Source: Callorhinchus milii
Taxonomy: Eukaryota
Direction: 5' to 3'
NCBI RefSeq assembly: GCF_018977255.1
Contig: NW_024704742.1
Location: 122,142,001-122,206,000 of the forward strand
Length of the DNA: 64,000 nt
The notes under the pieces were generated by a model, which was given only the letters and a program-made list of their open reading frames with translations, made no database searches and had not been told where the DNA came from. The position numbers and the translations under genes were made by a program. Within the stretch, counting starts at the first letter, position 1. Each line of letters starts with the position of its first letter. Shown piece after piece: positions 5,905 to 61,530 of the stretch.

Positions 5905-5935
<31 letters not shown>

Positions 5936-37354: not shown

Positions 37355-37690
37355 TATAATAATAATCCTTGCATGTGATAAGGCACCTTATCATGTCTTC
37401 GAGAGGTCTCAAAGTGCTTCACAGAATATACTGTAAAGTGGATTGACTGTCTATTTTGTGGGTGAATCGCGGCAGCCAATTGCATACAGCAGTGTCCCAC
37501 AAACAGTCGTGGATTTTTTTTTTGAAGGGATTACTACTCACAGAAAAACGATCCACAATCAACTAGCAAATGGGTTCCTACTTACTGCTAGGTGACAGAG
37601 GCGTGTGGAGTAAGGAAGCTTGCCTAACGTTTCACTTTGCCCAGGAATCAAACCCAGGTCCTCTCGCTTGCAAGTAAAGACAGGCTATAA
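37355..37690 (-). mobile_element. Young tRNA-Ala SINE, long form
   Basis: Reverse complement of the tail, central segment and B box. Confidence 0.88.
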
Positions 37691-38159
37691 TGTCTATCAA
37701 CATTTTTAGTTGTACATGATGTAACCAACTATGCAATTTTTAGTCGAGCAAAGGAGGTGGTCAGATCTGCTGATCTTGGTAAAGCATTGATATATAGAGA
37801 CACTCTTGTGTGCGTGCCGGCACACACGCACACACAAACACACACATAGATCTCATATTCACACTGCTTTCATTTGCCTGTTTGGGTTGGTTCCAATTAA
37901 AATAAACCTTGCATTTGATATCGGGCCTACAACGTCAAAACATCTCAAAGCGCTTCACAAGTAATTACTACTGAGTGTACTAACTGTATTTGCAGGCAAA
38001 CGTGGCAGTCAATTTGGGCACAGCATTTTCCGTGAACTGAATGACCAATTTTATCTGGAGGATTGTTGGCCAGGACACCAAGAGGAAACTTCTCTCTTTT
38101 CAAATAGTGCCTTGGGATCTTAAATATCCACCTTAATAGTCAGATAGTACAGCTACCTT

Positions 38160-39050
38160 ATGTACACAAATCATTAAAGGTGATGGAAAGGGAAGTTAAC
38201 AAAGCTGTAAAACAAATAGCTAATGCAATCCTAGATTTTATAGAGTACAGGTATAACGTAGGTAAAGGTAAACTGGTTAGATTACCATTGGAGTACTATG
38301 TCCAGCTTTGGAAACCATACTAATAGGAAGGATAACAAGGCCATAAAGAGGGTGTGGAAGAAATTCACTAGGGTGTGCCAGGAATGAAAGGTTTTACCGG
38401 TGAGGCAAAAATGGAGGAACTCCAGTTTTTCCTTAGAAGAGAGATGGTTGAGGAGAGATCTGTTTTTTGGAAATTATAAGGAATTTGATAACACAAGGAG
38501 AATGGTCAGCAACTGAAGAACATGGAATTAACATCTGAGGGTAGGAGAGACTTTTTTTTACACAGAAAGGCTGTTCGGTTGTGAAATGTCTAGAATGACA
38601 GAGTGAGGTTGAATCAAAATTAGCTTTGAGAAGAATTAGATAAATATTCTAAAAAAAAGAGAAATATAAAAGAATATGGGGCTAAATTTGCAAGCGAGAG
38701 ACCTGGGTTCAATTCCAGGCAGGGCGAAACCTTGGGCAAGTTTCCTTACTCCACACGCTTAATAATAATCCCTCCACAAAAACAAAACAATAATAAATTG
38801 GCCATTTTCAATCCATGACTGTTTGTGGGACATTGCTGTACGCAATTGGCTGCCGCATTCGCCCACAAATATACAGTCAATTCACTTTACAGTGTATTCT
38901 GTGAAGCACTTTGGGACATCTAGAAGACGTGAAAAGCGCTATATCAAATGCAAGGATTATTATTATTATAAATTGAGTTGCTCTTTCAGAAAAACAGAAT
39001 AGGTATAATGGGCTGAATTGCCTCTGTCTATCTAGCACATCTCTATGGTT
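38160..39050 (+). mobile_element. Old CR1 3' region interrupted by a young SINE (~38688-38970)
   Basis: ctggttag...ttggagtactatgtccag (LV.P.LEY.VQ) and the CR1 3' end resumes after the SINE tail (atgggctgaattgcctc). Confidence 0.75.
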
Positions 39051-39149
39051 CTGTGGATATCTGGTTCTCTGCTGTGATGTTATAATGATCTGTAACGTAC
39101 ATCTGAAAAGATAGATGACAATGACAAAAACTTGTATTTATATAGTATT

Positions 39150-39465
39150 CTTCGCATAACTTCAACCTGCTTACCCCCCACTCCACCACTCAATGCCTCC
39201 TCTCGGCCGGTTCCGATCTCCTGTTTGTCCGCTGCCCCCTTCGCTCCACCATCGGTGGCTGTGCTTTCAGCCACTACGCCCTGAAGCTCTGGAACTCTCT
39301 CCCTCAATCCCTCTCCATTTTCAAATCCCACCTAAAGACCTTCCTTTTTGATCATGCTTATGCCTCCCTCTTCCACTGGTTCGGGGTCAGAGTCCACCAC
39401 TGTCAAGTGCTCCGGGACTCTATCCAGTGTGAAGGGCTCTATATAAGTGCAAGTTGTTGTTGTTG
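39150..39465 (+). mobile_element. L2 3' end
   Basis: ccaccatcggtggctgtgctttcagc...ctctggaactctctccc...(ttg)n tail. Confidence 0.85.
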
Positions 39466-39479
39466 AGGGCTTTATAGAG

Positions 39480-39800
39480 ATGGTGATGGACACTGAGCAT
39501 AGGATAAGGGAAGAGGAGGGAATTGTTGGCACGGTCGAAGAGGTAGTTTTTTGGGGCGTGAATTTTGAAGACAGAGGGGAAGACAAAGTAGAATATTGGA
39601 GGAAGGGAAGGGAGGGACTACCAGAAGATGGGGCATAGTAGCTGAAGGCTTGGCTACTGATGATGGGACGGAGGGGGCAGGGGACATGCAGCAGGTCCAA
39701 GTGAAGGGCATGAGCAGAAAAGTCAGGCTGAAGAAGATCACAAAGGAAGAGAGGTGTGAGGGTGTGAAAGGATTTGTAGGTGAGGATCTTAGTTTTATTT
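39480..39800 (-). mobile_element. L2 3' fragment, opposite to the preceding L2
   Basis: Minus-strand translation KILTYKSFHTL.P.FL.DLL...AFSYYAP. Confidence 0.75.
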
Positions 39801-41334
39801 TTAATCCAAAGGAATATACCTCCAACAATGCAAAACATCCTCTGTACCGTAGTGGCACATCTAGGAATTCAAATGCTAAAGTGGGCGTGAGCCCACTAAT
39901 CTTGCGGCTGAGAGTGCCAGTGACAGGCAAACTGACGCACCTGAAGCTTAATGACTGCAGCTGTGACGCTGCCATGTAGTACAATTTTAAATCATTGACT
40001 GAAAACATTAGCAGCTTCTTAACTCTGTCCCTTGCAAATGACCTAAGATAATCATCCAATGCCACAGTCAGCCTAGCAGTTCCTGCATGTTTGATTGACA
40101 AGCTATGGTCACTAGAATAACCACTACCTTCTGTCAGGCAGCCTTAAGCCCAACCTGTTCTGTTAGTGAGCTATCAGTGCATGTCCTGGGAGAGAGCAAG
40201 ATATCGAGTACAAACAACAGTATTGCACAGAGCATACACAGAGAATGTGCTGGAGGTGGAGAATGCTCCCAAAACCGTGAGAATTCAATCTCCGTTCAAT
40301 AAATGGAAAGGTGCTAATAGTGAGGCAGAATGGAACTAAAGCTTGTGTAGCTGTGATGTGAACATGAAAAATGAGTTTGCCAACAAGGTGTGAGAAGTTT
40401 ACTTCCTTGGAGAAAGTGGCTAGGTACTGGAATGCCCATCTTCATGGCTCACCTTACGCCATCAATAAGCCCATTGATATCAACCATCAACGACGGTAAT
40501 GCTCTTTTTATTAATGTGATGTTTTAATGCCGGTTTCATAGGCGCAGGCAAGATTACTTGCTGTATGAACTTTACTATAGTAGTATTTTATCTCTTCACC
40601 ACAACAGCTGTGTGGTGTAATAAATAACTTTGAAAACGCTGCACTTCGGATAGTGGGGGATTCTGATCTCTTGCATTTCACACAGTCTTTCAGCCGAAAC
40701 AGCAGTAGGACCGTTGTTTTAATAAGTGCCTGTTGTGCAGTTTGTCTCCATTCTCTATTGGGGATCATAGCTGTGATCAACAAGTGAGTCACTGAAGGGT
40801 GCAGGTCTTATATAACAAAGATATATCAGACAAACTGGGGAGGGGGGTTGAATGTTGGTGTCTAAATAGCGGTATGGAATTCTTTAAAAAGGAATCTTGA
40901 GTTTGTAACTAGGGTATCCTTCCTGTAAACAGACGCTCATTACACATTAGGCCGACCCATGGGAACTCTGCTCTGACCTGATCTATCTCTAGAGGAGATT
41001 TCCAGCTGTGCAGATGGGAATTCTAACAGAATTCCTTATTGATCAATTCACTTTACAGTATGTTTTGTGAAGCACTTTATACGTCTCAACAACATGATAA
41101 GGTGCTACATCAAATGCAAGGATTATTATTAATATCAAAGAAGTAATTTTTGAACTAAGATTGATCTGTAGCACGCTCTGAGTGAATATTACACTCCAGT
41201 TTTGTCCACTATACTCTGCCTGTTTGAGAATATTTATGAGGATCTTGGCAGCTGTACAAATGTGTTTTGAGATGAGACAGCAACTGGTCAAAGTGCACAT
41301 TGTTAACACAATGCCAGTCAGCTGCAATTGGAAT

Positions 41335-41648
41335 GGAGTCCTGTAGCTCAGTGGTTAGAGCACCCGCCTTGCAAGCCAGATACCTATGTTCAATTCCAGG
41401 CAGTGCGAAACCTTGGGCACGTTTCCTTACTCCACACACCTAATAATAATACCTCCAAAACAAAACAATAATAAATTGGTCATTTTCAATCCACGACTGT
41501 TTGTGGGACACTGCTGTGCGCAATTGGCTGCTGCGTTTTGCCCACAAATATACGGTCAATTCACTTTACAGCATATTCTGTGAAGTGCTTTGAAACGTCG
41601 AGAAGACGTGAAAAGCGCTATATCAAATGCAAGGATTATTATTATTAT
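41335..41648 (+). mobile_element. Young tRNA-Ala SINE, short subfamily
   Basis: Full element. Confidence 0.92.
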
Positions 41649-42883
41649 AACTATTTTGCACAAGAGCATCGAGAGACCTGTGAACAGAAATCTGGGTGAT
41701 GACCACACATACGGGAATTTGGATGCCCTGATAGTTTTTGTTCGTCAAAGCCTGTATTCTGAACACAGTAAATCACAAGTTCAAATCCCATGGTGAGCTG
41801 AGATTTAAACTCACTTTCATGGATTGGACAAGATTTCCTTGTCCTCGGCTTACTGTAGTCAGGCAGAGCGCTCTGTGACAGCTTAAACTTCAGCAAAAAC
41901 TTCTTATTAGAATGAAAGGAGGAACAGGCAGCACAGTCCCATATACAGTAAATCCCCGGCTCAGCAGACTCAGAGTATCTGAGACCAATTTTAAAAATTT
42001 AAAGATAATTGTGCGACTTGAGTGTGTATGGACTTCTGCCAGCCCACTCTCACAGCAAGCCCTAACTCCAAGCTGAGCAGCCTCACCGTGCTTGCTGACC
42101 TTCACCCTGGCCAGGGATATCGACTTTGACTCAGTTTTAATCCCGTGAGCAGAAGATGGTTTATTCACTTGTGGGATTCAAGCGATTACAATTACCGACA
42201 TTTTTGACTTATGGCAGTAAATATATTAATAATAATAATCCAGGAGAAACTCCCTCCTGTTTTTGAATAATGCCATGGGATCTTTAACTTCCGTCTGAAC
42301 AGGAATTCGGTGAAGTTAAAGATGATTGTACAATGCAGCACAATTCATATTTTTATAGAGCCTATCACGATGGGAGGACATCACTTAATAATTCTGGATT
42401 GGTACCTGAGCTAGAGGTAGGAGTTGGGGTGGTAAAGGAACGATGACCTAAATTGTGGACAAAAAGGTACATTTTGAAACCTCTTGACACAATTAAAGGT
42501 GAGGGTTTGGAAGTTGACAGTATCCAATAAACCCATCAAGATCACTAACTCTCAGGAGAGGAGAAAACATGGGAACATACTGGGTACATACTGGGTAGTT
42601 ATTTTCTTAGTATTCTAGAGTATGCAGTATTTGAGAAAAATTGTTGAGTTCAGTTTCAACCATGAAGCTAGTTTTCTGTATTTCTTAAAAAAACTTACAG
42701 AAAACAGGTTTCAAAAGTAAAACGCCATTGACAAATCTGCCCAACTCTGGATACTCAAAAATGCTAAGAATCTAGACTCAGGAGAAATATCTAGGTAATA
42801 ATCTGTTAAAGTTTTATAATGTGGTATTTAGTTGAAAATGTATTCATCAGGAAAATTATATCAATGTTGACTCAATCCTGAAA

Positions 42884-43241
42884 ATAATAATAATTCTTGA
42901 ATTTGACATAGCGCCTTACCACGTCATTGAGACATCTCAAAGCACTTCACAGAATATACTGTGAAGTGATTGACTGTAGATTTTGTGGTTGAAGTGCGGC
43001 AGCCAATTGCGCACAGCAGTGTCCTCACAAACAGTGGTCGATTGAGTGACTAAATTATAATTTTTTTAAGGGATTATTACCCCCAGAAAGCAATCTGCCA
43101 ATCGACCAACAACCGGGTTCTTACTTACTGCTAAACAGAGGCGTGTGGAGTAAGGAAACTTGCCTATGGTTGCACCTTGCCCTGGAATCGACCCGGGTCC
43201 TCTCACTTGCGAGGCCTCCAACCAATACACTGCAGGACTCC
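42884..43241 (-). mobile_element. Young tRNA-Ala SINE, long form
   Basis: Reverse-complement full element ending at caggactcc. Confidence 0.88.
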
Positions 43242-44429
43242 ACAGATGTAAAGGATGTAAGCCAAGTTCTCAGTCAGTGTGATGCACATGAGGTTCCCAG
43301 TAGGAGATGCCCTTTGTGTCCTGAAGTGCTTTTTCCTCTGTACCTGGCCGCTTTTTGTGCTGCTGATTTTTTTCAATGAGTGCTTTTACAACCCTATTGT
43401 CTTTGAATGTTGTTGACAGCTGCCATGAATGTTCTGATGCACACAATCGGTAGAAAGGTTTTAAGGCTAATCTCGTGGTTAAATGATGATTTTAAAAGAT
43501 AGGTCTCTAGCCTGTGATTAGTGATTAATTGGTAATCTGCTATTTTTCTCCTCTTACCTTTCATTAGCAGTTCTTTATAGCATGCTAAGTCATTCTAAAT
43601 TTCGTGTCCTCAGTTACAGTGAAGGAATTATCCTCAGGCTATCTTTGGCAGCCTTTCACTCCTCATAGAACTGGATTATTCATAGCAGATGCTTTATCTT
43701 AATACCTCAATAAAAGTTGGCTGGTCTTTGTATTCATGGTACTATATCTATTTAGCAAGTTATTGTAGCCCCTAATAAAGAGTGTTATTTTTATATGCTT
43801 TATCTGCTAAAACATTTGGTCTAACTCTAGGCGTTCAGATCCCATTGTTTTTGATACTGAACTTGGGAGAGAGAGAGAGAGGGCGACCATTGGGCTGAGT
43901 ATAAGGCAACACAGAAACAGCAACAACAACATTACATTTTTATAGCGCCTTTCACGTCCGGAGGACTTCCCCAGGCGTTGGACAGTGTACAGCATTTCAG
44001 AGAGCTGGAAGAGTCATGACAGCAGAAGTAAAACATAGAACTAAATATTCAGAGATCAAATTAAAATGGTAAAGGACCTAAAGGCAGTTGGAAATAAACA
44101 GTAAACATATTAAATGGTAATTTGTTGAAGGTTTTATTTAACCAGGGAAGACATTGGCAAACTTGTAAGAGTTTGTGAATGGCAAAGTTTCTAGATGTGG
44201 TTGAAAACCAATATCGGGCCCAAAGTAGATCATCTATACCCCAGAGGACTTGAAGGCTTGAACAGGATTGATGGGAAATTGAAAAAGACTGTATTGTGTT
44301 AGCTGACTCTTTGCTCACCTTTACCAAACAGTGTGAGTTGGCAATAAACAAAGCATATGCAATGACAATCTATATATACAATGCTAATCTATATCTCTAA
44401 ATTACTTGAGTTCACATCCCCAGAAACCA

Positions 44430-44710
44430 ACATGTCTCCATGTCAATCTCCATGTCTAGGCTGATACGCCAATACAATGTTGGTGGGAGTACTTCTTTGT
44501 TGGAGGTACCATCCTTTGGATGAGGCATTAAACCGAGATCTTTCTGCCTGTTTGGGTAGACATTAAAGAACCCATGGCACTATTTGTAAAAAGAAGAGAA
44601 TTTCGCCTGGTGTCCTGGCCAAGAATCTCTCATTAAAACTGATCATTCATTTTATGGCTGGCTGTGCAACATTGGTGGACACAATTGCCTACAAATGCAC
44701 AGTTACTACA
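44430..44710 (+). mobile_element. Old DeuSINE core
   Basis: ctaggctgata...ttggaggtaccatcctttggatgag...aaagaacccatggcactattt...ctggtgtcctggcc. Confidence 0.72.
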
Positions 44711-45510
44711 GTTTTAAGCAGTTTAAAAAAATAAAATGGGCTTTTAGTTAACACCAAATAAGAGCTGTGGCAGTGGCACAGTTTTGCCAGCTTTTAGCCC
44801 ATGTGATTACCCAAATATAAAATTCTTGGCTTAGTTTGCTATTCAGGCCTTCTTTCAAATAATCTAGAAATTCTATGTGCTGCAGTGAACTATCCAACCA
44901 CAGCAATGTCCCAGAGCTCACTTTGACATAACCAAAACTTCACCTGTTCGTAGTTTATAGTTGTTAGATGATGGCTACTTGAAAGGAGTTTCTTTAATGT
45001 TTGCTACCAATGCTTAGAAAATTCAAGTGTTACAGAACATAATTACTGCTGTAACTGTACAAAGTCCCAGCCCCTTACTGTCATCAGCAGCTCTCTCCAA
45101 GGTCTCTCCTAAGTGTACACTCTAGATGCACCGTATTCACAGCCATCTGTGAGCATTAGTGATTTGCCCAAAGCTCTTCCCACTTGAACCAGACAGGCAA
45201 ACACGTGTTCAAATGGTTTCCGGCTGTTGTGTATCATTGCATTCGCGATCCACACCAGCTCAGCTACGATGAATGGTGGGATCGAGACAAATGCAATAGA
45301 AAGACCAGCTGTGGTCCAGTGAACCAGCACTGGAAGCCTCAGCAAGGAGGGTGGTGGAGGGTGATAGGACTTTTAAAAGCTACCATCTCATATTCATACC
45401 CTGTATTTTCCTATCTTGGGCCTGCATTACAGTACTATTTTGTCTTAGAATGACCTTGCAATGAGCTAACCTATCCCATCACATATGTGCTCTTCTGCAG
45501 ATTAATTATT

Positions 45511-45710
45511 TGGGGTTGAGGTCTGATTGAGGTTGAGGTCTGATCGGGCTTGAGGTCTAATCATGGACTGGGGTGATTGAGGTTAGGGTTTGATCGGGGT
45601 CTGGGGTTGGGCTCTGAATTTTTTTGGGTCTAATTAGGGACTGGGGTTGGGGATTGATTGAGGTTGGGGTTTGAGCAGAGTTGAGGGGGGACCATGACTG
45701 GGGATTGAAC
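45511..45710. repeat. Degenerate G/T-rich minisatellite (~17-bp units)
   Basis: ggggttgaggtctgatt-like units repeated about ten times with decay. Confidence 0.7.
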
Positions 45711-47462
45711 AATACCAATCATAAGAAGGTGCCTGAGAATAACCAGTAACTGTGTGGGGATATGTCTGGCTATTCCAAGGTCACATTACATAGCAGTATG
45801 TTTATAATAAGGAACTCAGTGTATGGAGCCGTGAACCTGTCTCTTACCAAGTAACACCTCACCACCCTCCCATTTCAGTGCTTAATATGAGTATGTGCAC
45901 AAGTATGACATTGTACATACTTTTTAGACTGTGTGAAATTATGAAAAAATAACAATCCTTAACGTGGTTTTCGCTTCAGCAGGACGTCTCAAAGAGCTTA
46001 ACAGGATATACTGTAAAATGTAATGACTGTGTATTTTCTAGGTGAACTCAGAAGACTCAGTATTCAGTATCAGTGATTGTATTAAAAAAGAACTCAACTA
46101 GAGTCAAACTGTTTGTATGGGTGGCTGGATGATTCATGTGGAAACTAACCAGCCTGAGGTGCCATAGCTACCAAAGGAAAACCATGGATATCCAAGTTGA
46201 TTAATTGTGGATTCCCCTCTAAAAGCTTACCTCTCTTCTCCTTTTTCTTTCTACTGTGATATTTTGCCAGTATTTTGCTCAACTGACCTTTATCCAAATA
46301 TGAAATATTTCTAAAAATATTAATTGCAGTTTATTTTCAATGTATGTGAAAATGCTACCTTTGGATTTGATAGTAAAATGCAGGGGAGTGTGATGCTAGA
46401 GTGAAATCCTGTTATAACGCGGGTTAGCTCAGAACATGGTTGGACCGTGGACACCACCATTTACTTATGCAAAAAAATCCAAAATGTGCCATCAACTCCA
46501 TTTGCACTTTAAACTGCCAACCTGTGACATAACGGCAAGTGGCATTGGTTGTACACCATAAACCAGAGTTCGACCATTTTGTTCTTCCTGTGTGCCAGCC
46601 AGACAACATTTTGATGTGCCAATGAAGCCTTTTGCACTGACAGGCGATCACCCCCCCATTATGACACTGGTTGAGATCTTCAACCTTATTATTATATGTT
46701 GGTAGCATACATATATGTACGCAGTACCTTGTTTTACTGTAGCCCCAACGACTGACTGAAGACTGCTGTTCTAATTGTCAGAGAATAGTATAATATTGGA
46801 TACTGCGATTTGATATTGACAGTCAACAAGTCACAAGCCATTTGAGATAAGTACACTACACAGCAACAGTACAGTGGGTTTAATACAAAGAGCAACTGCT
46901 ATGCAACACGTCTTAGGTGCAGGGTAAACAGCTGTGATACTCATTACATTGCTATTTATAAATACCTAGCAAAAGGCCTTCAAGTGCGTAGTGCTTCTAT
47001 TACAGATAAGAACTTATACATTTAAGACTCCAAAAAAGAACTGACATTTGTAATACCCAGATCTGTTATTTGTAGCGAAGTAAATATGATAGTCATTCTC
47101 CATTTTGCATTTGTTTTCCTTCCCAACCTTGTTAGTATTTACTGTTTGCTTGAGAAATTCAGCTACATTTCTCCATCTAAATTTTTTAGATACTAAATAA
47201 AGCACAATTATTAACGTATTTAAAATATGTTGTCATTCGAGGAATGATGTACTGACGCAATGTGCTGATCCCCCAGAGGATCTTGTGATTCCACATGTGT
47301 TCCACACAGTTTTTGAGCACAGTCCGGATGGGGTGAGGGACCTGCGAAGGCCAGGAAGTTGGAAGGCGAACTAGATGGACCTTGGTCTTTTGATCATCTA
47401 ACATTTCTTATGTTCTTATGTTATCCAGACTGAGAATTCCATATATATATGCTACCAACATA

Positions 47463-47902
47463 TAATAATAATCCTTGGATTTGATATAGTGCCTTGCCAC
47501 ATTGTCAAGATGTCTCAACGTGTTTCAGAGGATATATTGTAAAGTGGATGGCCTGTGTATTATGTGGGCAAAACATAGGAGCTAGTGTGCGCTCATTTAT
47601 GTTCCACAAACAGCCATGGAGTGAGTAACCAATTTTATTTGGGGAATTGTTGGCCAGGACACCGGGAGAAACTCCCTTCTCTTTCGAATAGAGTCATAGG
47701 GTCTTTAACATCCACCTGAACAGACAGATGAGACCTTGGTTTAACGTCTCATCTGAAGGATGGCACCTCCAACAATGCAACAATCCCCCAACACTGCATT
47801 GGAGTGTCATTTTAGATTATATGATTCTAAGTCCTGACGTGGGACTTGAACCTACAACCTTCTGACTCAAAGGCAAGGGTGCTACCACTGAGCCAGGCTG
47901 AC
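47463..47902 (-). mobile_element. Old DeuSINE (SacSINE1-like), full length
   Basis: Complete head (tgtcagcctggctcagtggtagc), core and tail in reverse orientation. Confidence 0.88.
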
Positions 47903-48939
47903 ACACATGGAAATTTCCCATGGCTGGAATGGAATTTGCACTCTCTCCCTGGAGTGGGGGTTGAAGGGGTAAACACCATATTTATTTAACTCTGGAGAGT
48001 ATTAGATGCAGGTTGGCAAGAGCCAAGGATTGTGGACCCCAGCGTGTGCGTTGGGGTACTGCTGGAGTTTAACTGGCTAAAAATACATAGCTTGCATTAA
48101 AAGCACTGTCTGGCAAGTTTCCCGCTGCTTATCCAGCTAGGACCACCCTACCTGTTAGGGCTTTGGCTTGCAGGGTTAACAGTAGAAATTAACAGTAACA
48201 GAACAAAGAACTGAGAAATTTCACTGAACAAAGAACTGAGAAATCTCAAGATGTTGACCAAATGGTATTGTTAAAGATTATGGGTTTAACCTGTTTTTGA
48301 AAGCAGAGAGTGAGGTAGCGAGGGAAAGTGGTTTGAGGGGAGAATTACGAAGGGCAATGACATGACGGCTGAGGAGCCAGCAATAACCAAGAATCAGCAG
48401 AGTGGAAGGTACAGGCTGATTGTAGGACTGGAGAAGGTCCATATAAATGTGGTAATTTGCTGAAACCACCATTTGCTTTCAATGTTCACTGGTGTAAAAA
48501 ACCTACTTTAAAACTGCCTTTCAGATACTTTATGTAGCCTTCATGTCTAGCTACCACTTTCCCCATACTATTAAATTAGGGTAATTATTGAAGACAAAAC
48601 TATAGACCAATAGTCACAATGCTAAGAGTGAGAGGTGGTATAAATAATTGAACACAGAGAAAATATTAATGTATTAAACTAGAAGTGGGCATTTTGCCAC
48701 TGCAAACAGCTGACGTCAGTAGCACAGATGAGAAACAATGATGAATGGGGATAAAATCCCATTGTATTGTTCTCTTTTCATCCCTGATTGTTTTAAGATA
48801 TTTTCTGATTTTTTTTGTCCTGGTTTCTTTACGGTTTTAAGCATAATTTAAGAGGGAAGTTAAGTGTTGTATATCATCACATACTCCAACAAATTGGTGG
48901 GACATCTCAAAGTGTTTCACACAGCTAACTGGAAGCTGC

Positions 48940-48985
48940 GGGGTGGGGGGGGGGGGGGGGGGGAGGCGGGGAGGAGGTGGGGGGA
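48940..48985 (+). repeat. Poly-G / G-rich tract
   Basis: An uninterrupted G run of about 19 nt flanked by further G tracts. Confidence 0.85.
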
Positions 48986-49340
48986 AAGTAATCAAAAGAG
49001 GGGTCAGAAAGATAGTTCTTTAAATGAGTTCAAAATAGAAGAGGGAGCGGACAAAAATAAAAGAACAGTTACCTGCTGAAAAGAGACAATTGCTTGTTAT
49101 GTCTTGTTATAATTATTGCAGCAGTATTCACCACCAAAATACGCAGCCACTATACTTTGCAGCATGCCCTATGAGGCAATTTGGCACATCCTCCTAACAG
49201 GAAAGGTGCTATATCAGATTCAAGGATTATTATTATTTAACAAGCATTGTTTATTCAGCCAAACAAAGCGTTTTTTTATTTGGATGTACTGTTCCTTTTA
49301 TGTAAAAGAAGCACATATAATAATTAATGGGGCATTGATT

Positions 49341-49373
49341 TTAATTAAAAATATTCCTTTCTTTTAGGTAAGT
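49341..49373 (+). promoter_or_regulatory. Candidate recursive splice site (polypyrimidine tract, TAG|GTAAGT)
   Basis: ttaat, then tattcctttctttt, AG at 49366-49367 and GTAAGT at 49368-49373. Confidence 0.55.
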
Positions 49374-49590
49374 ACAGCATGTTCTAATCTTTTTGACCTG
49401 AATTCCAAGGATCTGGATTATACCAAGGTACAATGGTGATATTTGTGTTAGTTTGCACCTTGTTTCGGTTAATTGAGGACTTTGACTAGCTTTTCCACAA
49501 GCCTGGATAGAGTCATTGCTTTAAGAAAAACAGTAGGATTTAAATTTAGGGGCAGAAATTCAACAAGTGTTCCCAATCAGTCTATTTAGT

Positions 49591-49952
49591 GGAGTCCTGT
49601 AGCTCAGTGGTTATAGCACTTGCTTCACGAATGAGAGACCTGGGATCAATTCCTGGCAGGGTGAAATGTTGGGCAGGTTTCCTTACTCCACACGACTCTG
49701 TTTACCTAGCAGTAAGTAGGAACCCGGTTGTCAGTCGATTGGCGGATTGCTTCTCCGGGGATCATAATTCCTTCAAAAAAAAATTGGTCACTTCAACCCG
49801 CGACTGTTTGTGGGACACTGTTGTGCGTAATTGGCTGCTGCGTTTCACCCACAAAATATACAATCAATTCACTTTACAGTATATTCTGTGAAGTGCTTTG
49901 AGACATCTCAAAGACGTGATAAAGCCCTATATCAAAATGCAAGGATTGTTAT
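49591..49952 (+). mobile_element. Young tRNA-Ala SINE, long form
   Basis: Full element. Confidence 0.92.
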
Positions 49953-50358
49953 TTAGGTCAAACTTTATAGAGGGTTTAGAATTCAGCAAATTGTTGTATT
50001 CAGTCTGAAGTCGGTTTTCTGTAATTCATAAAAAAAACTTTAATTAAACCAGCTTGAAAATTAAGGCTTCATTTAGGAATTTGTCAAATTCAACACTCTC
50101 TGAAATACAACATCAGTAGAGTAAATCTAGACCCAGGTGTTTTATCATTCTGCCATCTAAAGGAAAGTATAGTAGTCACAATATGGCTCTAGCGATATTT
50201 GTTTTATTATTGTGCAGAAGAGGCTTAAAGTTTTTTTTTAGTTTCCTTAATTTCATTGTATTGTAGAGACTATTGTGGTGTTGATGAAAGAAAGGGTCTT
50301 TATAGGAGGAACATCTGATATTGCCATTTACAACCTGAAATATTGAAGAGTGACTCGT

Positions 50359-50681
50359 GGAGTCCTGTAGCTCAGTGGTTAGAGCACTCGCTTTGCAAGC
50401 AAGAGACCTGAGTTCAATTCCAGACAGGGCGAAACCTTGGGCAAGTTTCCTTACTCCACACGCCTAATAATAATCCCTCCAAAACCAAAAACAATAATAA
50501 ATTGGTCATTTTCAATCAACGACTGTTTGTGGGACATTGCTGTGCGCAATTGGCTGCCGCGTTCGCCCACAAATATACAGTCAATTCACTTTACAGTGTG
50601 TTCTGTGAAGCGCTTTGGGACGTCCTCCCGACGTGAAAAGCGCTATATCAAATGCAAGGATTATTATTATTATTATTATTA
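50359..50681 (+). mobile_element. Young tRNA-Ala SINE, short subfamily
   Basis: Full element, very close to the subfamily consensus. Confidence 0.95.
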
Positions 50682-52499
50682 TATTTGAATTGAATTGTGT
50701 GCTAGTAAAGTAACTTGACTTCATACTACAAGTCAGGAAATTGAGGACATTACCCCTCTCAGGTTAGGTAAAGAATAAAGTGTGTGGTAGTTTAGCCTTC
50801 CTCTCCTTACAGCTCGTCACTAGAGCAGTCCTTGTCCACTGATGTTTGTTTTACCAGCCCAGTAATGAATATTGAGACACAAACCTGCAGTGCCACCTAA
50901 GCATGGCTGCTCTGAGCCACAAAAATTGTAGTTCTTTATTCTTGCATTGGATTTTACATTCAAAAATATCAATCACTGACTGTTTTTTGCAACTGCTTTG
51001 ATTTTAAATAAAGGCAAATCGTTTGTTCACTTCCCCTCCCTTCATATCCACTGCGACCCCATTCTTCCCTCCCTTCCCAACATCAGATACTTTGCCCCAC
51101 CCTTTGGAACACTTACCCTCAATCCTGCTACTTCCCTCCCTGCTTTCGGAGCCCCTGTAAATATCTCTTCTCTTTTACTGCTTCATCCACCTACGCTCTC
51201 TCCTCCCCCGCCGCCCCTTACACTTATCTCCCACTTTCCGCACATCCCAGGATTGCTTAAAAACAGTAACCACACTGGGAAAAATAATTACTATGCAGTA
51301 TGTTGAGATGTGTAACGTCCTAAGATGTACTGCACATTTATTACAGGATGTTAACAGGTGAGCCAATAGGTTTTAACAGAAGGTTTTTCTTCAATGAGTC
51401 CCAATAACATCTGAACTGTAGAGGAATGTTTACACCAGTGGGCAAGAGGTTACCACAATCAAACTGTGTGGATTCAGCTCGAGGGAAATTGCATCATATG
51501 ATTTGATCAGGATTGGTACTGTATTAGGTTTTGCATTGAAGTGTGACAGGAGAATAGCATAATATGAATACATTCCAGAATCGCTTTATAAAGCAACCAT
51601 GGAGTTAAAGCTGAGGGTTCGTTCTCTTGTGCAGTGTTATATGGTTGTTATTCTTCTCAGCATACTGTGAACCTTTTGAAGAGACTCAGATATTAGGATC
51701 TAAAAAGCGATGATTATCTAATGGGATTCCTTAACAAGAAGTCCAAGATACAGATGAGGATTCCTTCTGGTGATCGTAGGTCCACTGACGTGGGAGCTCT
51801 GTTCTGATGTGATCTACTTCCAGATTGGTGTTCCCTCAGGTGTCAATCATCTACTTCTGTTTATCAGAGAGTCCCCATTTGTGACTCGGAATGACTTTAA
51901 TAGAATCAATGCATTTTAGATCCCTTTGCACAGTATTTCTGCCTGAACCATGTTCTCATCTGGCTGTCCACGGTCAGGAAAATACTGCGGTAGAGGCTTC
52001 CTCCAGGACATGAAGGGTGCTAAATAAATGCAAGTTGCGTGTGTAGAGGAAATGATAATATTTCAGGGAAGCAACTTTGTACTAATACCATGAAAGGATG
52101 AAACTTTTTTAAAAAATCATTTGCAGCCTCAAGCGTTCCAGAATAGGCAATGTCTGATTTCTTAGATTTCCAGTAAACAGCTTTTCTTGTGTTAAGCACT
52201 ACTTTCTCATTGTTTACACTCTGAATTCAAGCTAACCATAAATAGCATGGAAAACATTCACTGGAAAAAGAAACGTTCCAATTATTTGGATCCCACATGT
52301 TTGATTTTGTTGGCATTACTTCTAAAGAATAATAGTTGGAAAATCTTACGGAATTAACTGTTTCTCATCCAATGCAGCCCAAAATAACAGTAAACCCACA
52401 ACAATAATCCTTGCATTTGGTATATCACCTTAATACCTCTTTGAAATGTTTCAAAGTCCTCATAGGATTTACTGTAAAAATAAATGGTTAAGTCCATAG

Positions 52500-52712
52500 T
52501 TAATAATCCCTCAAGAAAAAAAAAATAATAATTTGGTCACTTCAATCCATGACTGTTTGTGGGACACTGCTGTGTGCAATTGACTGCCGCGTTTCGCCCA
52601 CAAATATACAGTCAATTCACTTTACAGTATAATCTATGAAGCGCTTTGAGGCGTCTAGTAGACATGAAAAGCGCTATATCAAATGCAAGGATTATTATTA
52701 TCATTATTATTA
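52500..52712 (+). mobile_element. Young SINE 3' half
   Basis: Starts at the internal taataatccctc motif and runs to the (tta)n tail. Confidence 0.88.
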
Positions 52713-53459
52713 GAGTGTGATTCTAGGTAGACTACATACAATTGGTCTTGAATTACCAAAAGGAAATTGAGAAAGGCGAAATAATGGAAATCTACAGCAG
52801 AAGTCAAAACATATTTTATATCATCAAAGGACTGATGGTTATTTTCATAGGATATCAGTCAGTACAACTGGAGTTTTTTTGCCCACAAAATATACAGTCA
52901 CTGCACTTTATGAAACCTTTAAGACTTCCTACCGATGTGAAAGGCACTGTACCAAACGTAAGATTATTATTCAGATTGTGGATGAACAGTTGGAGTGTGT
53001 ATTCCCCGTCTCATCCAACAGAGGGCGTCACATCACCTTCAGGAATTACAGAAAGACAAGTGGAATTGACTGGCTTTGCCAATCTGATTGCAGACACCAC
53101 TTTATTGTTATTTCAAATAAAATCTATCGTCGGACTTGAGAGATAGTGATGTTACAGTATTTAGCATTCTAGCTAGCAATCAATTTATTATTTTTGAGGT
53201 ATCTGTCTAGTTCCCTCTTGAAGGCCAATATGGATTTTAGCTCAATAATCGCTCCCGACAGGACATTTCACATACTAATTACTCTGTACGTGAAAAAAAT
53301 TCTCCTAATCTCCCCATTTCCTCATTTACTATCTAAATTTACTATCACTTGCAATCTTTCATTCAGTATCAACCTCTTTGCTTCCACTCTCGACACCAGG
53401 ACGGCTACTGTTCTGACTGATTTCAGTGCTCTGAGATGCTACCCTTGTGAAGTTTTTGT

Positions 53460-53750
53460 TATTATTGATTGCCCGTCAAACATCAAGTCCTGGATGAGCT
53501 CTAAGTTTCTTCAGTTGAATGCCAACAAGACAGAGGCTATCTTGCATTCTCACCTCAGGCGCCGATTGTATCAACCTGCATTGATGCACACTCCACTTCA
53601 CGGAACTGGTACAGAAATTCCCAACTTTCTTTAATACCTCACCTGTGTGCTCTTATCCACTCAAATTTCCCCTCATTTCTAAAACACTGCCCACCTCTGC
53701 CACTACCTCTCCCCTCGGTCTGATGAGATCCTCATCCATGCCTTTCACTA
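53460..53750 (+). mobile_element. L2 RT-region fragment
   Basis: DC.SNIKSWMSSKFLQLNANKTEAIL, then gagatcctcatccatgcctt (EILIHAF). Confidence 0.7.
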
Positions 53751-53885
53751 TATCTTCTGTACAAAGCCCAGCTAAGTTTATCCAGCATTTGCTACTGTAA
53801 AACTCTTCAGCCCACCCAACTGTATTACCTGGGGTAAAGTTTGGAATGTATACTTCCCAATTCTCAAGGCAATAAGGTGAAAGCT

Positions 53886-54318
53886 CAGCCTGAATCAGTT
53901 GGTAGCACTTTTGCCTCTGACTCAGAAGATTGTGGGTTCATGCCCTACATAGGGATTTTGAACCACAGTCTAGGCTGACATTTCAGTGCCAATATAGTGC
54001 TGGGGGTGTGCTGCATTGTTGGAAGTAGCTTCCTTCGGATTAGATTTTAAACCACAACCCCGTCCAGCTGTCGAAGTAGACTTTAAAGATCCCATGGCAC
54101 TACTCAAAAAGAAAGGGAGTTTCTCCTGGTATCCTAACCAACAATCCTCCAAATAAAATTGGTCATTTGCTTCATAGCTATTTGTGGGACATTGCTGTGT
54201 GCAAATCGGCTGTTAAGTTCACCTACAAAAATACACAGTCACTCCACTTTACGGTCAATCTTGTGAGACATACTGCCTGATGTGAAAGGCATTATATAAA
54301 ATGCCAGGATTATTATTG
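53886..54318 (+). mobile_element. Old DeuSINE (SacSINE1-like), full length
   Basis: cagcctgaatcagttggtagc head, aaagatcccatggcacta core and ggattattatt tail. Confidence 0.88.
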
Positions 54319-57300
54319 TTTATTATAATGTTGGGTTACGAGACTCGTGACTAGATTTGCAAAATGATCAATTGCGAATTCCAAGCCACAGAAAGTCTGT
54401 AAAAAGACTCGTGGAAAGCTGCCAATGGCTCGCTCAGGGATTATTCAGACATTGCATGGATTCCGAGACACATAAAGCAGAAGTCACATTTAGCAACTCA
54501 AATTGAGTTTACAAATCATCGCAGTTTCGACCTGAATATCCCAGCAAACATTGGGTGACAGAGCAGAGAACACTCCGAATATTCATATCATAGATGATAA
54601 CCTTCTTTAATGAACCAAATCACACACCTAATCAAAATCTTTTGAGCTATGTTTCAATACGGCTTCCAAATATCCAGGATTCACAATCTAATGATGAAAT
54701 TTCTTTGTTGTTTCATTTGCCTACTCAAACCGCAAGGGAACAGCTATTAGGCCTTCACTGAAAATTAAACTGCATTGATTTGATTGAACATTAATGCTAG
54801 AGATGATTTCTAATTTAATATTAAAACATAATTTTTTTTTACCACTGGGCCTTTGGAAACAAAGAAGGATTCCTCATTTCAAGAACGTTTTGCTGCCTTT
54901 AAATATTTCAGAAAAAAATTAATAATTAAAGGTACTATTTAAAGACCACTGGGGTTGATAAGATTAGAAAGTATGCGGCTAAAAGTTTTTTTTTGTCACT
55001 TGAAATTCTAACAGATACCACTTGCTGAAAAATAGAAGATTTTCCACTTTGTGCTGCATGTACTCCGAGGCAATTAGCTAGATGCAGTTCAGAAGATTTA
55101 CTCTGGCCTTAGTGTAAAGCACACACTTTTGGCACATGGTGTACATTTAGAGGGAGAAATACCCAAACTTATGCCACTATGGGGGAGGAACACATGCTAT
55201 TTTCCCTGAAGGGTCCCATAATGTTTATTTTACTAGGCATTGTTAAGGAGCCATTTTAAAGGCCGTTTTGGGGGATGGCAGTCAAGGTGGTGGATGGGAA
55301 AGATGACCAAAATCGTGGTCAAATAGGTACGTTTTAATGGTAAAACATAGCTTAAATTTTGCACATATCCGAAATATGCCACAAGGAAGTTGTTTGTATG
55401 GGATGATTGCCCTGCAGTGATGGGGCCATTACAAATGATAAAAAAATGTGCATTTCATAAGGAATCATCTGATATATGTGTTAGAAAAGTGCCTATCAAA
55501 ACTCACTGTCAAGGCTCTCAGATTAGTAGAAGGAAAAATAAGTTTAAAAAGTTCTGGGGGTTTTGGGTGGGGAGGTGGGTAGGGAAAGAGGTGGAGAAAG
55601 TTGGAGGAGACAAATTGGTGAAAAATAAAAACAAATTGAAAAACTTTAAAGCAAATTATCTGCCGCATCCCAGGGTTATAACAACAACTTACATTTGTAT
55701 AGTGTCTTTCACGTCTTAAATCGCTTCACACAGCTAACATCGTGGCCCAAAAGCATCAATTAAAAAAATTCATGCTCCGGAGATCACAGTCAAACAGTGA
55801 GCTTGCGTGATTTATTATTCCCAGCCTCTGGGAAATACTAATCCAAAATAGTTTGATTTAATTAATTAGGTAATCCAAGTGTTATAATCCTTCACAAATA
55901 TCTTGTGGTATGATTTTTATTTCCATTGGTAAAGTGATCCAAACTAACTCAAGACTTTGTAGCTGGTGATTCTACTAAATAAAAAAACATACATGGAATG
56001 CTAGGAAGCGGCCAGTGGATTTGCTATTAACATATTAGTTCTTTTGAAGAAGTCCCTTTGGCCTGTTTGATCTCATCTCTCCAGAACGCCCACCCTTCTG
56101 TCTTCCCATCATAGCATCAAGCTGTTTTTTTTAAACAAGCCAGTTCCTGATCTCAACCATCTTTTCTGGCAAACTGCTCCTGTCATTAATTACCATCTGT
56201 GTAAAGAAAAACTTCCTGGTGACTGTGCTGAAATTGCCCTTTGCAACTGTAACCTATGGCCATTTATTCTACTATCTTGGTGTTACTTAAAATATTATTC
56301 TGAATTCACTTTTTCCATCCCATTTAAAATTGTACATACTTCTTCAAGGCCTCTCTGAGATTAGATAAACTAGGGCTCTTTCAAGACTGAAGAGCCCTAC
56401 CTTATCTAATCACCATACTGTGAAAGGAAGATGGAAATGCTTTTCATTCTTGACACAGCAATTCAGGATAAAGGATATTGAGAAATGGCTAAAAATTAAA
56501 ATTTATAATGATAGGCAAATCAAATTGGTAAAATCTTATAATTATTCTGATTCATTACTAATCTGCAATGTGTGTCACCATGACATTTCTCCAGGTGCCT
56601 GGGATTATAGGTTTGTCCTTCCTTGAAGCGATTGTAGCAAATTCACAAAGGGATCTCATACTAACAGAGCATAGACTCAACATTTCTCAAGGTCTAATCT
56701 GAGTTCTAATTTTAACGTTGAAGATTGTACTAAATTTTGGATAATTCGTTTTTTGGCTCTTAAAATGAGATTCCACAGTCGTTGGACAATGACAACAACT
56801 CTCATTTATATAGTGTCCTTAATGCAGGATAGTGTATTGAGAGCACTGCACGGTGGCATGGTTAGGACTTCAAGGAAGTGAGAAGTGGGAGGTGACCATA
56901 GCCGCGTTTAAAGAGATAGGTCTTGATGTGGGATTTAAAGATAGGTAGGTTTGCGTGCGTGCAAATTAAAACTCAATTTAAGAATTTCACAGATTTTGCA
57001 AGATCTTCAATTTGCACATAACGGCTTGAAAGCGAAGGCCATATGGAACACAGTTTGCTCTGAAAAGGGAGTGGGCTGTCCAAGACCATTCAGGGTTGTT
57101 GAGGAAGAATTATGTCAACCAGCAAAGTGCTTTGATCAAAGTAGCCATTTGACGCTATTGGCATACTATATAAATAACCATGTGATCTTCTGTGTTTTGG
57201 TGTAAAACAGACACAAGAGGTGACAGTTCCTGGGAACTATTTGTAAATCTTTCTGGCTTTGTTTATTATAAGGGCATTCATTTCTGAAGGTACTTAGATC

Positions 57301-58724
57301 ACTTGGATCAATGTTTTAGGCTTCATTTGGTTTACCCTTAGGTGCAAAATTGATACAGGGGAGAAGGACGGGGGGAAATAGTTTATGGGTGCAAAAGAAA
57401 AGGGTGGGGGGAAAGATCACTTTCATAGTATACTGGTCTCTTATCAAAGTTGAAAGAGGAAATGAAGGAGCCTTCATTGTAACTAGTGATCACAATGTTT
57501 GAAAATGAAAAATCGTGGTGAGCTGAACATTGTGTCTTTCAACCTCAAGCCTCATGTCAGCAGAATGACATGTCTCAACTGAGACTAAGAATATGCTCAT
57601 GAAAGCTGGACAAGAGAGATGAATAAATCAGCAGCCTCAGTGATTGGCAACAGAGCATTCCTCTGTCACTGGAAAGGCAGCCTCCTGTGAATTACAGCCA
57701 TTAAAATCTTTGCATTTGATACCATGTCTATAATGTCGAACCTTCCCAAAGTGCTTCACAGGGAATTATTGTCAAGTGTAGTGACTTCAGAGAAAACTGT
57801 CACTTATTATTAATCTATTAATGTTCAACCCCTTCCCTCTCCTCTTTTCATAAATGATTTATTTAACTGCATGCAAGGGTGAGAAGGGAATACAGGGGTA
57901 GGGAAGACAGGAAAAGGAGACTGCTTGGAGTATAAACACGGGCACAGACTAGTTGGGCTGAATGGTCTGTTTCTGTGCTGCAATGTTGTTTGTAATTCAA
58001 TGTAAATGAGAGTGGGATTATAGCTCCAATGCTGGAGCAGGAAAATGAAACTAGTTTTGGGATTCTACAACCATAAGTAATCTATTACCATCAGTGATTG
58101 AATTTTTCTTGAGTTATCTGTTGGTCAGTAAATTTACCAACCTTGGCGGTACATCAGTAAAAATTATTGATAATTAGAGAATTTCTTCCTCTCCCCTAAA
58201 TGCATGTACTGTGCTCCTTAGGACAGTACACAGTGGATAAAAAGGCATTAATCCCTTAAAGGTGGCCAACTCTCTTCTTAACAATGCTCCAAGTCACACA
58301 AATACTGTCTCCACGCTTGTTAGTTATGACTTGTCAAGAGCTTTAAGACATTTTGACAGGATAAAAATGCAAATTCTTTCTCTTTCACATTCACAGTGAT
58401 TTGTCTGCCAGCATGATTTTATCATTAAACTGCTATTTATGTTTCATTTTTTTACCAAGGTAATACCTTGAGATAAAAGTTTGGAACGTTAAAGTATTTA
58501 CATTTTACTCACAGAATGTTTGGGATCGTTGCAGTGATTTGTGTCTGACGGTGGGCATTGCCAGTGGGAAAGCCCTTTCATCAGTCTTAAATTGTATACA
58601 CTACATTGTGCAGAAAAAGATGATAGGTTTTACAGAGCACAGAAAATTGGGTTCACTATTAATGAGATTTGCTTAAAGCAGTCCAGTTCAATGAATTGTT
58701 AGTTCCTGTCAATGTTATGATAAA

Positions 58725-58862
58725 ATAATAATAATAATCCTTGCATTTGATATAGTGCCTCATCATGTCTGCGAGACGTCTCAAAGCACTTCACAGAATA
58801 TACTGCATAGTGAATTGATTGTATATTTTTGTGGACGAAACCCAGCAGCCAATTGCGCACAG
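58725..58862 (-). mobile_element. Young SINE 3' fragment
   Basis: (taa)n, then ccttgcatttgatatag...gcagccaattgcgcacag. Confidence 0.85.
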
Positions 58863-60109
58863 TAATTGAAAAGCTATTAATTGAATAATTGAATAATAAT
58901 AATTGAATATTGAATTGCTGCGTTGATTAACGCAGAGTGATGTCAACAACCAATTGACATCCACGAATGTCCTCATCTCTGTAAAATTATGCTCTGCTCT
59001 GCCAAAGACATGGTGGAGAGGTTTTCATCCATAGCAGCTACAAGTGTGGTGAAACCTTCTAGGCCTCTAGATTATTTGCCTCCTTGTTGTCTTTCCTTTG
59101 TATAATTCCTACAATGTGCAGGATCTCTTGCAGTTTGGGGAACTTGGTTGTATAGTGTACCTGTTAGCAGTATGTAGTTGGTAGTCAGAAAATGATGAGG
59201 TTTCAGACTTTAAAAGGCAGCCTTCCTTGGATGTAGAAGCCATTTCTCGGGTTCCCTCATAGACATGATCCCTTGTTATCAAAGGTCACCATGTTAGACA
59301 CAACGAGGAGGACGTCCCAAGGCACTGGAAAAGGTTGATGGATGCCTACACAAGACAACTTAAAAGAAAGTTGCTTTAATTGTACATTTAACAGAACACA
59401 TCTCAGCAGAAACAAATGTGAGGAAATGTGGAAATGTAATCCTGGAGGTTTATCAGAGTTTATGTTTGGAAGCACAAATGGGTTGCAAAGTATACTGTTT
59501 ACACTTTTGCTGCTCTTAACATTGTGACAGTTTCGTAGCCTGGTGCCATCAGATGCACACATTTGCCCTTTGTATTTACAGTTAGATCTTTAATTCTCCC
59601 AAACAAGAGCACTAATGGCAATGCAGCTTAAAATATGAGACAGGTTGGACAGCTGTGTGGCACACTGCTTTGGAGTGTTGATTTGCATTATGCATTTGTT
59701 TGCAAACATGATGTTTGCAGTTATAATCCACAGCATGCTGAGCACTTATTTCAACCGTGAATTTACTAAGCAGAGGTGAAAAGGAGAAACACAAAAGGAT
59801 AAGTCAATTCAATGTGAATCGCGTTTTTACGTCTAATGGCCCATCAAGTTTATCCATTTGAGCTATACACCTTGACCAATTCTGCTCTCTCCACGTACTC
59901 TATTACATTTGCTCACTCTTATTGATATGCCCTGTGTACAGTGGAGTAACCGGATTAGAAGTAAATTCAATTAAGAGCTGTAGCTTAATAGATATAGAGG
60001 AACCCTGTTATAGCACCTTTCAATATAGATTGCGTCGCTCATAATAAATCCAGGTCTACTGAGGACCCACACTAACTGGAAGCGTAGTACATGTGGCCTC
60101 TGGAATTGG

Positions 60110-60235
60110 CTTCCCATGTTAAATAATGACCAACTTCCTGGTTGTCAGGTCATCCCTGACATCACTTCCTGCCCAGTGTCATCAGTGATGTTTCTTGAAA
60201 GGAAATGACATTAACGATGACCATTTTTTTCATGC
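60110..60235. repeat. Second copy of the acttcctg-rich repeat seen at ~2800
   Basis: Aligns in reverse orientation to ~2841-2900. Confidence 0.5.
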
Positions 60236-61530
60236 CTAATTGCCCTGGGATAATGGACCAGCTAACCACACTGCCACAAGGTTTCCCTGTATACCCTGAT
60301 AGTAACTTGTTTATTCAAACTCTATTATCTTGCAGCATACAATGAGGAACTTGTGAGATTCAGAAACTGGACTACAAATGGATCTGTAGTGCTGTGCATC
60401 TGTTTACTGCAGGAAAAACATTGCATTTCATCCTTTTTATTATCAAACCAAACAGATACGGACCCAGAATCATTTGGAACAACAACAAAAACTTGCATTT
60501 ATATAGCAACCCTTCAAGTAGGGCAGGGTGTTGGAGCAGTGTAGTTTGATGTGAGCCGGGGGGAGGGAGGAGGTGGCCTTAATCACGGTCAAAGAGGAAC
60601 ATCACTGTATCAAAATGACAGTTTGCAAACATGCAGTGAAAAATACCTGACCACCCACTTACAAATCTGCAGCCTGAACAATATCCTGGTCTTTGTAAAT
60701 GGCTCAGATGCTGTACACATACTCTGAAAAATACATAGTACTTCATTCTTACATAAATATCGTCCGGATTGTCTCAAACATGTTACCCATTGCTTTGTGT
60801 TAAAGCAGTTAAACTTGAGACATCCAATCATCAAGTTTGTCTTAAGCTATTTTCTAAAAAAAAGGTACTGTGGTAAAAGGTTTCACTTGACATAGGAATA
60901 AAGGAAAATAGAAACAAGAGGTGGCCATTCGTACTATTGAACCTGTTCCACACTCACTGGGAACAGGATTGAACTTTCTCTCAAACTAAAATGTTTGCTC
61001 AAAGTAGAACAAATCTGCAGAAACACTAGTGAGCGAGTAGTAAACTTAGGGAACAAGCTCCTTCGGGAGACAGTGGAAGCAGAAAATGTCATTTGTTTGA
61101 AGAACAAATTAGATAGATTTCTGCTGGAAAATAATATCTCAGAATACAGTGTATAATTTGGGACACAACATGTTAAGTGACTGCCAGGATGGTGGAAGGC
61201 GAACTAGATGGACCTTGGTCTTCTTTCGCCTAGCAAATTCTTATGTTCTTATGCACACAAAACACACAGTCACTGCACTTTACAGTATGTCCTATGAATG
61301 CTTTGAGGCATCCTCCTGAAGTGAAATGTGAAATGTAAAGATTATTATTATTAACTCAGCCATGTAAGAGCCTTACAGACAACTGTAAATTCAGTTTTCT
61401 TAAACTGTGTGAATGACATTAATTCACCATAAGATATAAACTCATAAGTGCTCCGAGACATTAACCATGTGAAGGCTGCAATATAAATGCAAGTTGTTGT
61501 TGTGATGCCATCAGGTACTCTGCTTATGTA

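What the first reader, a model, noticed from the sequence alone, without database searches (positions are those of the whole stretch)
49341..49433. Second recursive-site motif 32 kb downstream, suggesting a multi-step splicing ratchet
Seen: polypyrimidine tract plus TAG|GTAAGT, sharing the core ttttaggtaagtaca with the first site while the flanks are unrelated and non-repetitive. A weaker downstream donor (AAG|GTACAA at 49427/49428) would define a 60-nt RS-exon. By a rough base-composition estimate, a bare YAGGTAAGT is expected a bit less than once per 64 kb strand, so two copies that both carry strong polypyrimidine tracts are unlikely by chance. Inference: a giant + strand intron is removed in steps of about 30 kb, which fits the absence of any recognisable coding exon in the window.
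Basis: partly seen in the sequence, partly recalled or inferred. Interest (0 to 1): 0.7.

Follow-up and report, generated by a model that had tools for sequence, protein, structure and literature searches.

The report
Ancient PDE4D stepping-stone splice site (RS3)
A fused "end-of-intron, start-of-intron" signal sits in a giant intron of a cartilaginous fish's PDE4D gene, at the same relative place as a stepping-stone splice site already shown in human and mouse, so it is likely an ancient copy of a known way to cut long introns in steps, though its use in this fish is untested.

Summary
The motif is real: 12 pyrimidines, then TAG|GTAAGT at 49367/49368. The window lies in the giant + strand intron region of PDE4D; the last exon is 100% identical to proteins labelled Callorhinchus milii. 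This site, the one at 17516 and one 138 kb upstream of the window rank top three of 1,454 YAG|GT positions in that region. They match the three published human and mouse PDE4D recursive sites in order and relative position. This one maps to RS3 (0.888 of the way between the same-rank first exons in both species).

Steps are irregular (9-155 kb), not about 30 kb. The window holds a conserved first coding exon (40371-40495). Two motifs in one window are expected about once per genome by chance, so position, not rarity, carries the case.

The 60-nt RS-exon is unsupported; any inclusion would give an immediate stop. Sequence orthology and use in this species are untested. The scan had already noted the two partner sites here and an RS3 copy in another genome. 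Verdict: known mechanism, known site, older than reported in the papers I could search.

The parts
49327..49348 (+). Candidate branch-point adenosines: yUnAy matches at -41, -30 and -24, and a looser TnA at -20
   Evidence: Human RS3 lariat ends lie 20 and 33 nt from the site coordinate. Compatible only; AT-rich DNA offers many such A's.
49354..49367 (+). Polypyrimidine tract (12 Y) and acceptor AG of the recursive site (site C, counterpart of PDE4D RS3); 54-nt AG-free zone upstream
49368..49373 (+). GTAAGT, the intron half of the donor that would be rebuilt after the first splice; TAA at 49369-49371 is an in-frame stop behind any phase-2 first exon
49368..49427 (+). Putative 60-nt RS-exon ending at AAG|GTACAA (5 of 9 matches to the U1 consensus); unproven, with five other donors of equal or better match within 350 nt
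17497..17522 (+). Partner site B (junction 17516/17517), counterpart of PDE4D RS2; its tract matches the mouse RS2 tract best of the three
40371..40495 (+). Coding part of a conserved alternative first exon of PDE4D (41 codons plus 2 nt, phase 2, donor ACG|GTAATG), 8.9 kb upstream of site C
   Evidence: tblastn to owl P0059 at 69%; 71% and 67% to P0121 and P0122, the latter spliced directly to the first shared PDE4D exon
1..64000 (+). Whole window: part of the PDE4D 5' intron region, between the D3-type first exon (donor 91.5 kb before the window) and the D8-type first exon (window-equivalent 67037-67125)
24224..24232 (-). Bare TAGGTAAGT on the antisense strand with a weak tract; background, not part of the system

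Best explanation
The site is a strong acceptor fused to a perfect donor inside the giant 5' intron region of PDE4D, and it is likely the orthologue of the human and mouse recursive splice site RS3. Shown: the motif, the host gene and strand, the order of seven first exons and three sites, and the immediate stop codon. Inferred from the mammalian data: transcripts from the upstream promoters would splice their first exon onto this AG, either directly or after a step at site B (17516). That rebuilds a donor (ACG, CTG or AAG|GTAAGT), which would then splice 102 kb on to the first shared exon, passing the D8- and D9-type first exons and leaving no trace in the mRNA. A weak downstream donor would help define the site but lose the competition. 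If it won, the phase-2 junction reads G-TAA, so the product would be a decay target rather than a 20-residue insert.
For: Host gene PDE4D on +. Sites A, B and C are the top 3 of 1,454 YAG|GT positions on both strands of the 468-kb intron, all on the sense strand. Y7-AGGTAAGT occurs 3 times on + and 0 on - in 664 kb; 0.045 expected in the D5-to-shared-exon intron, Poisson P = 1.4e-5, with the pattern chosen after the fact. Human PDE4D has three sawtooth RS sites with junction reads and mouse has three. Relative positions in the longest intron are 0.392/0.673/0.785 in human and 0.381/0.714/0.782 here. Interpolating between shared exon anchors misses A, B and C by 8.2 kb, 27.5 kb and 34 bp; three random points do as well in 0.37% of 1e6 draws. 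Human lariats join RS2 to RS3. Tracts of A and B score best against mouse RS1 and RS2 respectively.
Against: Sequence-level orthology of this site is not shown. Its tract ties between mouse RS1 and RS3 (17 vs 17), and no flanking DNA from another vertebrate could be had. The coarse test (same inter-exon intervals) gives only P = 0.074. The 34-bp agreement is partly luck, as site B is off by 27.5 kb. The motif is not enriched genome-wide (259 vs 281 expected; strict form 19 vs 31). Human donors were matched to exons here by rank order, with isoform labels recalled. Single Ns at several places in the region could hide gaps; none lies between B and C.
Confidence: 0.85

Rival explanations
1. A chance motif: an AT-rich intron happens to carry a tract plus AGGTAAGT near where RS3 would be, and the true RS3 was lost or arose later in bony vertebrates.
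For: Genome-wide counts are at or below Markov expectation. About 1.1 window-strands with two motifs are expected by chance. The tract does not single out mouse RS3.
Against: The gene was named in advance by the literature as having three such sites. Exactly three stand out here, all sense, in matching order and position (P about 0.004 for position alone).
Confidence: 0.07
2. A regulated poison cassette exon: the 60-nt exon is included at times to send PDE4D long-form transcripts to nonsense-mediated decay, and this matters more than recursive removal.
For: The first full codon is TAA behind the phase-2 first exons, and a donor lies 60 nt on. 68% of human RS-exons carry premature stops.
Against: The downstream donor has 5 of 9 U1 matches against 7-8 for the rebuilt donor (downstream score; 7-8 counted by hand from the same sequences). 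In mouse, all three Pde4d sites had 0 exon-to-downstream junction reads. The mouse table gives the RS3 exon as 150 nt, not 60. The stop is built into any GTAAGT in a phase-2 intron.
Confidence: 0.06
3. One reading: a regular ratchet that removes the intron in steps of about 30 kb.
For: Sites B and C are 31.9 kb apart.
Against: The other segments are 53, 109-155 and 102 kb, and the human B-C equivalent is 86 kb. No further strong sense-strand site lies between the D5-type exon and the shared exon.
Confidence: 0.02

Closest known systems
Human PDE4D RS3 (hg19 chr5:58,678,237, - strand; hg38 59,382,412; PMC6110456, PMC13622621; first reported by Sibley et al. 2015 as cited there)
   Same: Same gene and sense orientation, third of three sites, same relative place between first exons (0.888 vs 0.888), AGGT core with a strong tract, an upstream partner site.
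   Different: Shorter spacing here (31.9 vs 86.0 kb from the partner; 102 vs 166 kb to the shared exon). Use is shown in human by junctions, sawtooth and lariats, and untested here. I did not see the human flanking sequence.
Mouse Pde4d RS site chr13:109,614,417 (PMC8797253, S3 and S4 Figs)
   Same: AGGTAAGT, a T/C tract, third of three sites, weak downstream donor.
   Different: The mouse tract is longer (19 of 20 Y vs 14 of 20). The listed RS-exon is 150 nt with 0 downstream junction reads, against a guessed 60 nt here.
Vertebrate cryptic RS-exon class (CADM1, CADM2, ANK3, OPCML, NTM, LSAMP, ROBO2, HS6ST3, NCAM1) and Drosophila ratchet points
   Same: Fused acceptor and donor deep in a very long intron, with a rebuilt donor expected to out-compete a downstream one (PMC6224609, PMC6110456).
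   Different: Fly sites are reported to split introns into roughly equal parts (as stated in 10.1101/2024.12.11.627982). Here the sites sit among alternative first exons at uneven distances.

Membership tests
Vertebrate recursive splice site (RS-exon type) | YAG|GT(AAGT) with a strong polypyrimidine tract | tested here: met
   MaxEntScan itself was not available.
Vertebrate recursive splice site (RS-exon type) | Deep in a very long intron, on the sense strand of the host gene | tested here: met
   PDE4D on +; 343-468 kb introns; 8.9 kb from the nearest exon found
Vertebrate recursive splice site (RS-exon type) | Rebuilt donor stronger than the downstream donor | tested here: met
   By U1 match count only: 5 of 9 for AAG|GTACAA against 7-8 of 9 for the rebuilt donors (counted by hand). 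ACGGTAAGT scores 11.81. One donor 344 nt on has 6 of 9.
Vertebrate recursive splice site (RS-exon type) | A defined cryptic RS-exon | tested here: inconclusive
   Six weak candidate donors within 350 nt; none is singled out
Vertebrate recursive splice site (RS-exon type) | Upstream-exon-to-site junction reads, sawtooth cover, site-to-site lariats | not testable with these tools
   Only assembled contigs were on offer; see Tried and rejected
PDE4D RS3 orthologue | Same order and relative position among the first exons and partner sites | tested here: met
   P about 0.004 (fine test), 0.074 (coarse test)
PDE4D RS3 orthologue | Alignable flanking sequence across species | tested here: inconclusive
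   Only the 20-nt mouse tract was available, and it tied between RS1 and RS3. The metagenome scan and look-alike search found nothing.

The most novel reading that the evidence does not exclude
The whole PDE4D 5' architecture, seven alternative first exons interleaved with three recursive sites, has kept its order since the last common ancestor of jawed vertebrates, and RS3 is not a length divider but a collector. It takes five upstream phase-2 first exons onto one perfect donor just before the D8 and D9 promoters, upgrades the weaker native donors (GTAGGT, GTAAGA, GTAATG become GTAAGT), and turns any failed second step into an instant stop codon. Recursive sites would then be ancient devices for multi-promoter genes.
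Probability: 0.25. Interest if true: 0.55.

Novelty: new member of a known kind. Interest (0 to 1): 0.3.

Why it matters
Recursive splicing at this site is already published for human and mouse, so the mechanism is not new. What this adds is age. If the match holds, all three PDE4D sites predate the split of cartilaginous and bony fishes (roughly 450 million years, recalled). They kept their places among the first exons while the spacing changed up to 2.7-fold. That argues for selection on position relative to promoters rather than on step length, which bears on the open question of what vertebrate recursive sites are for (10.1101/2025.08.14.666599, passages). Searches pairing 'recursive splic' with shark, cartilaginous and jawed vertebrate each returned one paper, off-topic by title and abstract. 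Sibley et al. 2015 was not held and may already show part of this conservation.

Tried and rejected
RNA: no RNA holder was listed for 48900-49800 (11 runs listed, 8 laid). X1-X4 laid on 47868-50867 behave like genomic DNA. Single contigs cross the site unspliced, repeats swamp the joint and loose-end tables, and those tables were cut. X7-X10 laid on 49250-49570 gave 0 contigs each. None of this says anything for or against use of the site.

Conservation: an exact 21-nt pattern in metagenome contigs gave 0 hits, and the look-alike search of earlier findings gave 0. MaxEntScan was not available, so I used pyrimidine and U1 match counts.

Genome-wide enrichment: tested and not found. A sense-versus-antisense comparison over all long introns could not be run without annotation; only the first 100 of 259 hits were listed. 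The reversed-pattern control (892; 78) exceeds the motif count and is probably inflated by repeats (inference), so I used a Markov expectation instead.

Other strict hits: I viewed the 17 hits outside this gene. A C2-set_2 search placed none near a CADM-like gene, while the ZU5 search gave two leads.

Papers: Sibley et al. 2015 was not held by PMC id or DOI.

Readings rejected: a repeat origin of the motif (no hit for 49246-49574 in 664 kb); a recent duplication of site B (flanks unrelated); the site as the end of a coding exon (open frames of only 0, 6 and 7 codons upstream, GC 0.25); an in-frame 20-residue microexon (immediate TAA).

Full report
Observation. The sequence is as described: 12 pyrimidines (49354-49365), AG (49366-49367), GTAAGT (49368-49373), and AAG|GTACAA 60 nt on. 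The first site is at 17516/17517, and only a 23-column core is shared. A third bare YAGGTAAGT lies on the - strand at 24224-24232; shuffles give 0.82 for both strands and 3 of 100 reach 3. The site is in a 330-bp unique island between repeats, at single-copy depth in four runs that behave like DNA.

Chance. Y7-AGGTAAGT occurs 259 times in the 991.5-Mb genome, against 281 expected from a fourth-order Markov model trained on 664 kb. The strict Y10-N-YAGGTAAGT occurs 19 times against 31 expected. So the motif is not enriched. Two in a given 64-kb strand has P = 3.5e-5, but about 1.1 such window-strands are expected in the genome. Rarity alone would not make the case.

Host gene. The window is G000:C1:122142001-122206000. 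PDE4 UCR and catalytic exons lie 154-265 kb past the window on +. The last exon is 100% identical to two UniRef proteins labelled Callorhinchus milii, and its other best named hits are PDE4D. In the PDB it scores E 7e-61 to PDE4D against 3e-33 to PDE4B. The isoform numbers are recalled; the order D7, D4, D5, D3, D8, D9 is that of a figure legend in PMC2929239. The unnumbered exon is inside the window (40371-40495) and matches owl, woodrat and an unnamed protein that is spliced straight to the shared exon.

Three sites. Of 1,454 YAG|GT positions on both strands between the D7-type donor and the shared exon, the three best by tract and donor match are A (122004044, 138 kb before the window), B (17516) and C (49367), all sense, with a clear gap to the fourth. 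Human PDE4D has three sawtooth sites, RS1-3, at hg19 58981769, 58764261 and 58678237 (PMC6110456); rows for the same sites, and others, appear in PMC13622621. Mouse has three (PMC8797253). In the longest intron the human sites lie at 0.392, 0.673 and 0.785, and A, B, C at 0.381, 0.714 and 0.782. Between the D3- and D8-rank donors, RS3 and C both lie at 0.888. Interpolation between five donors and the shared exon misses by 8.2 kb, 27.5 kb and 34 bp; 0.37% of 1e6 random triples do as well, and 7.4% fall in the same intervals. The human donors were paired by rank; the tables I saw gave no human coordinate for the D9-type or the unnumbered exon. Tracts of A and B match mouse RS1 and RS2 best, but C ties between RS1 and RS3. 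Orthology of C thus rests on position.

Mechanism. Shown here: anatomy only. From the mammalian work: a first exon is spliced to the AG, the donor is rebuilt and out-competes a downstream donor, and the second splice leaves no trace (PMC6224609; PMC6110456). Candidate branch A's lie at -20, -24, -30 and -41 here, which is compatible but weak. The upstream first exons end in phase 2 (read from the exon ends and the peptides), so the junction reads G-TAA and any retained RS-exon stops at once. The 60-nt exon is one of six weak options, and mouse shows 0 downstream junction reads for all three Pde4d sites. Segment lengths are 53.4 kb (D5 to A), 155.5 (A to B), 109.0 (D3 to B), 31.9 (B to C), 8.9 (window exon to C) and 102.1 (C to shared exon), so there is no 30-kb rhythm.

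Novelty. The mechanism and the site are in print for human and mouse; zebrafish cadm2a is cited as a fish example, and a lungfish study (parts 1-2 of 3 read) used PDE4D only as a human control. Searches with shark, cartilaginous and jawed vertebrate found nothing on topic, but the library lacks most subscription papers and Sibley et al. 2015. I had the PDE4D and three-site reading before consulting earlier notes. Those notes agree for sites A and B in this genome and report an RS3 copy in another; one pointed me to PMC6110456. They are leads, not support.

What I saw of each paper. PMC8797253: parts 1-2 of 5, passages, supplements S3 and S4 whole, rows of S1. PMC6110456: passages, section 9, supplement rows, part 366 of 400 of file 10 (stored cut), file 13 whole. 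10.64898/2026.09.10.750672 (PMC13622621): passages and the 25 supplement rows matching PDE4D. 10.1101/2024.12.11.627982: parts 1-2 of 3. PMC5126111: part 1 of 3. 10.1101/2025.08.14.666599, PMC6224609, PMC2929239, PMC5342582: passages. Sibley 2015: nothing, only as cited; its supplements may bear on the conservation claim.

Verdict. Real feature; likely the PDE4D RS3 orthologue (0.85); new member of a known kind; interest 0.3.

Noticed in passing
window 40371-40495 (+): Conserved alternative first coding exon of PDE4D (42-residue match to owl, woodrat and an unnamed spliced protein), between the two sites; I could not assign it an isoform number.
   Followed up: partly
window 50354-50701: A SINE-type repeat present in the assembly is skipped by single contigs in 3 of 4 runs laid (X1, X3, X4; two studies), with 18 letters between the sides. 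Likely a young, polymorphic insertion (table 8).
   Followed up: no
L074 (G000:C7:17809692, +) and L073 (G000:C7:14509842, +): Two of the 17 other strict motif hits lie 130 kb and 94 kb upstream of same-strand ZU5 exons. The first has a tract resembling the mouse Ank3 RS tract and may be the ANK3 site; host genes were not identified.
   Followed up: partly
G000:C1:122293283-122293422: The two UniRef C. milii PDE4D models (P0002, P0003) begin by reading intron sequence upstream of the first shared exon and lack the real first exons found here.
   Followed up: no
G000:C5:3570425-3580451: A PDE4 paralogue shows one catalytic exon on both strands with the same score, and UCR exons on - while other catalytic exons are on +; a local inversion or an assembly error.
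   Followed up: no
G000:C1:122209020-122209040 (L022): The D8-type exon's ATG is preceded closely by tandem AG acceptor-like words with a short tract, so it might also be reachable by splicing.
   Followed up: no
window 63840: A single N lies between site C and the D8-type exon; 11 single Ns occur in the 664 kb and may mark gaps.
   Followed up: no
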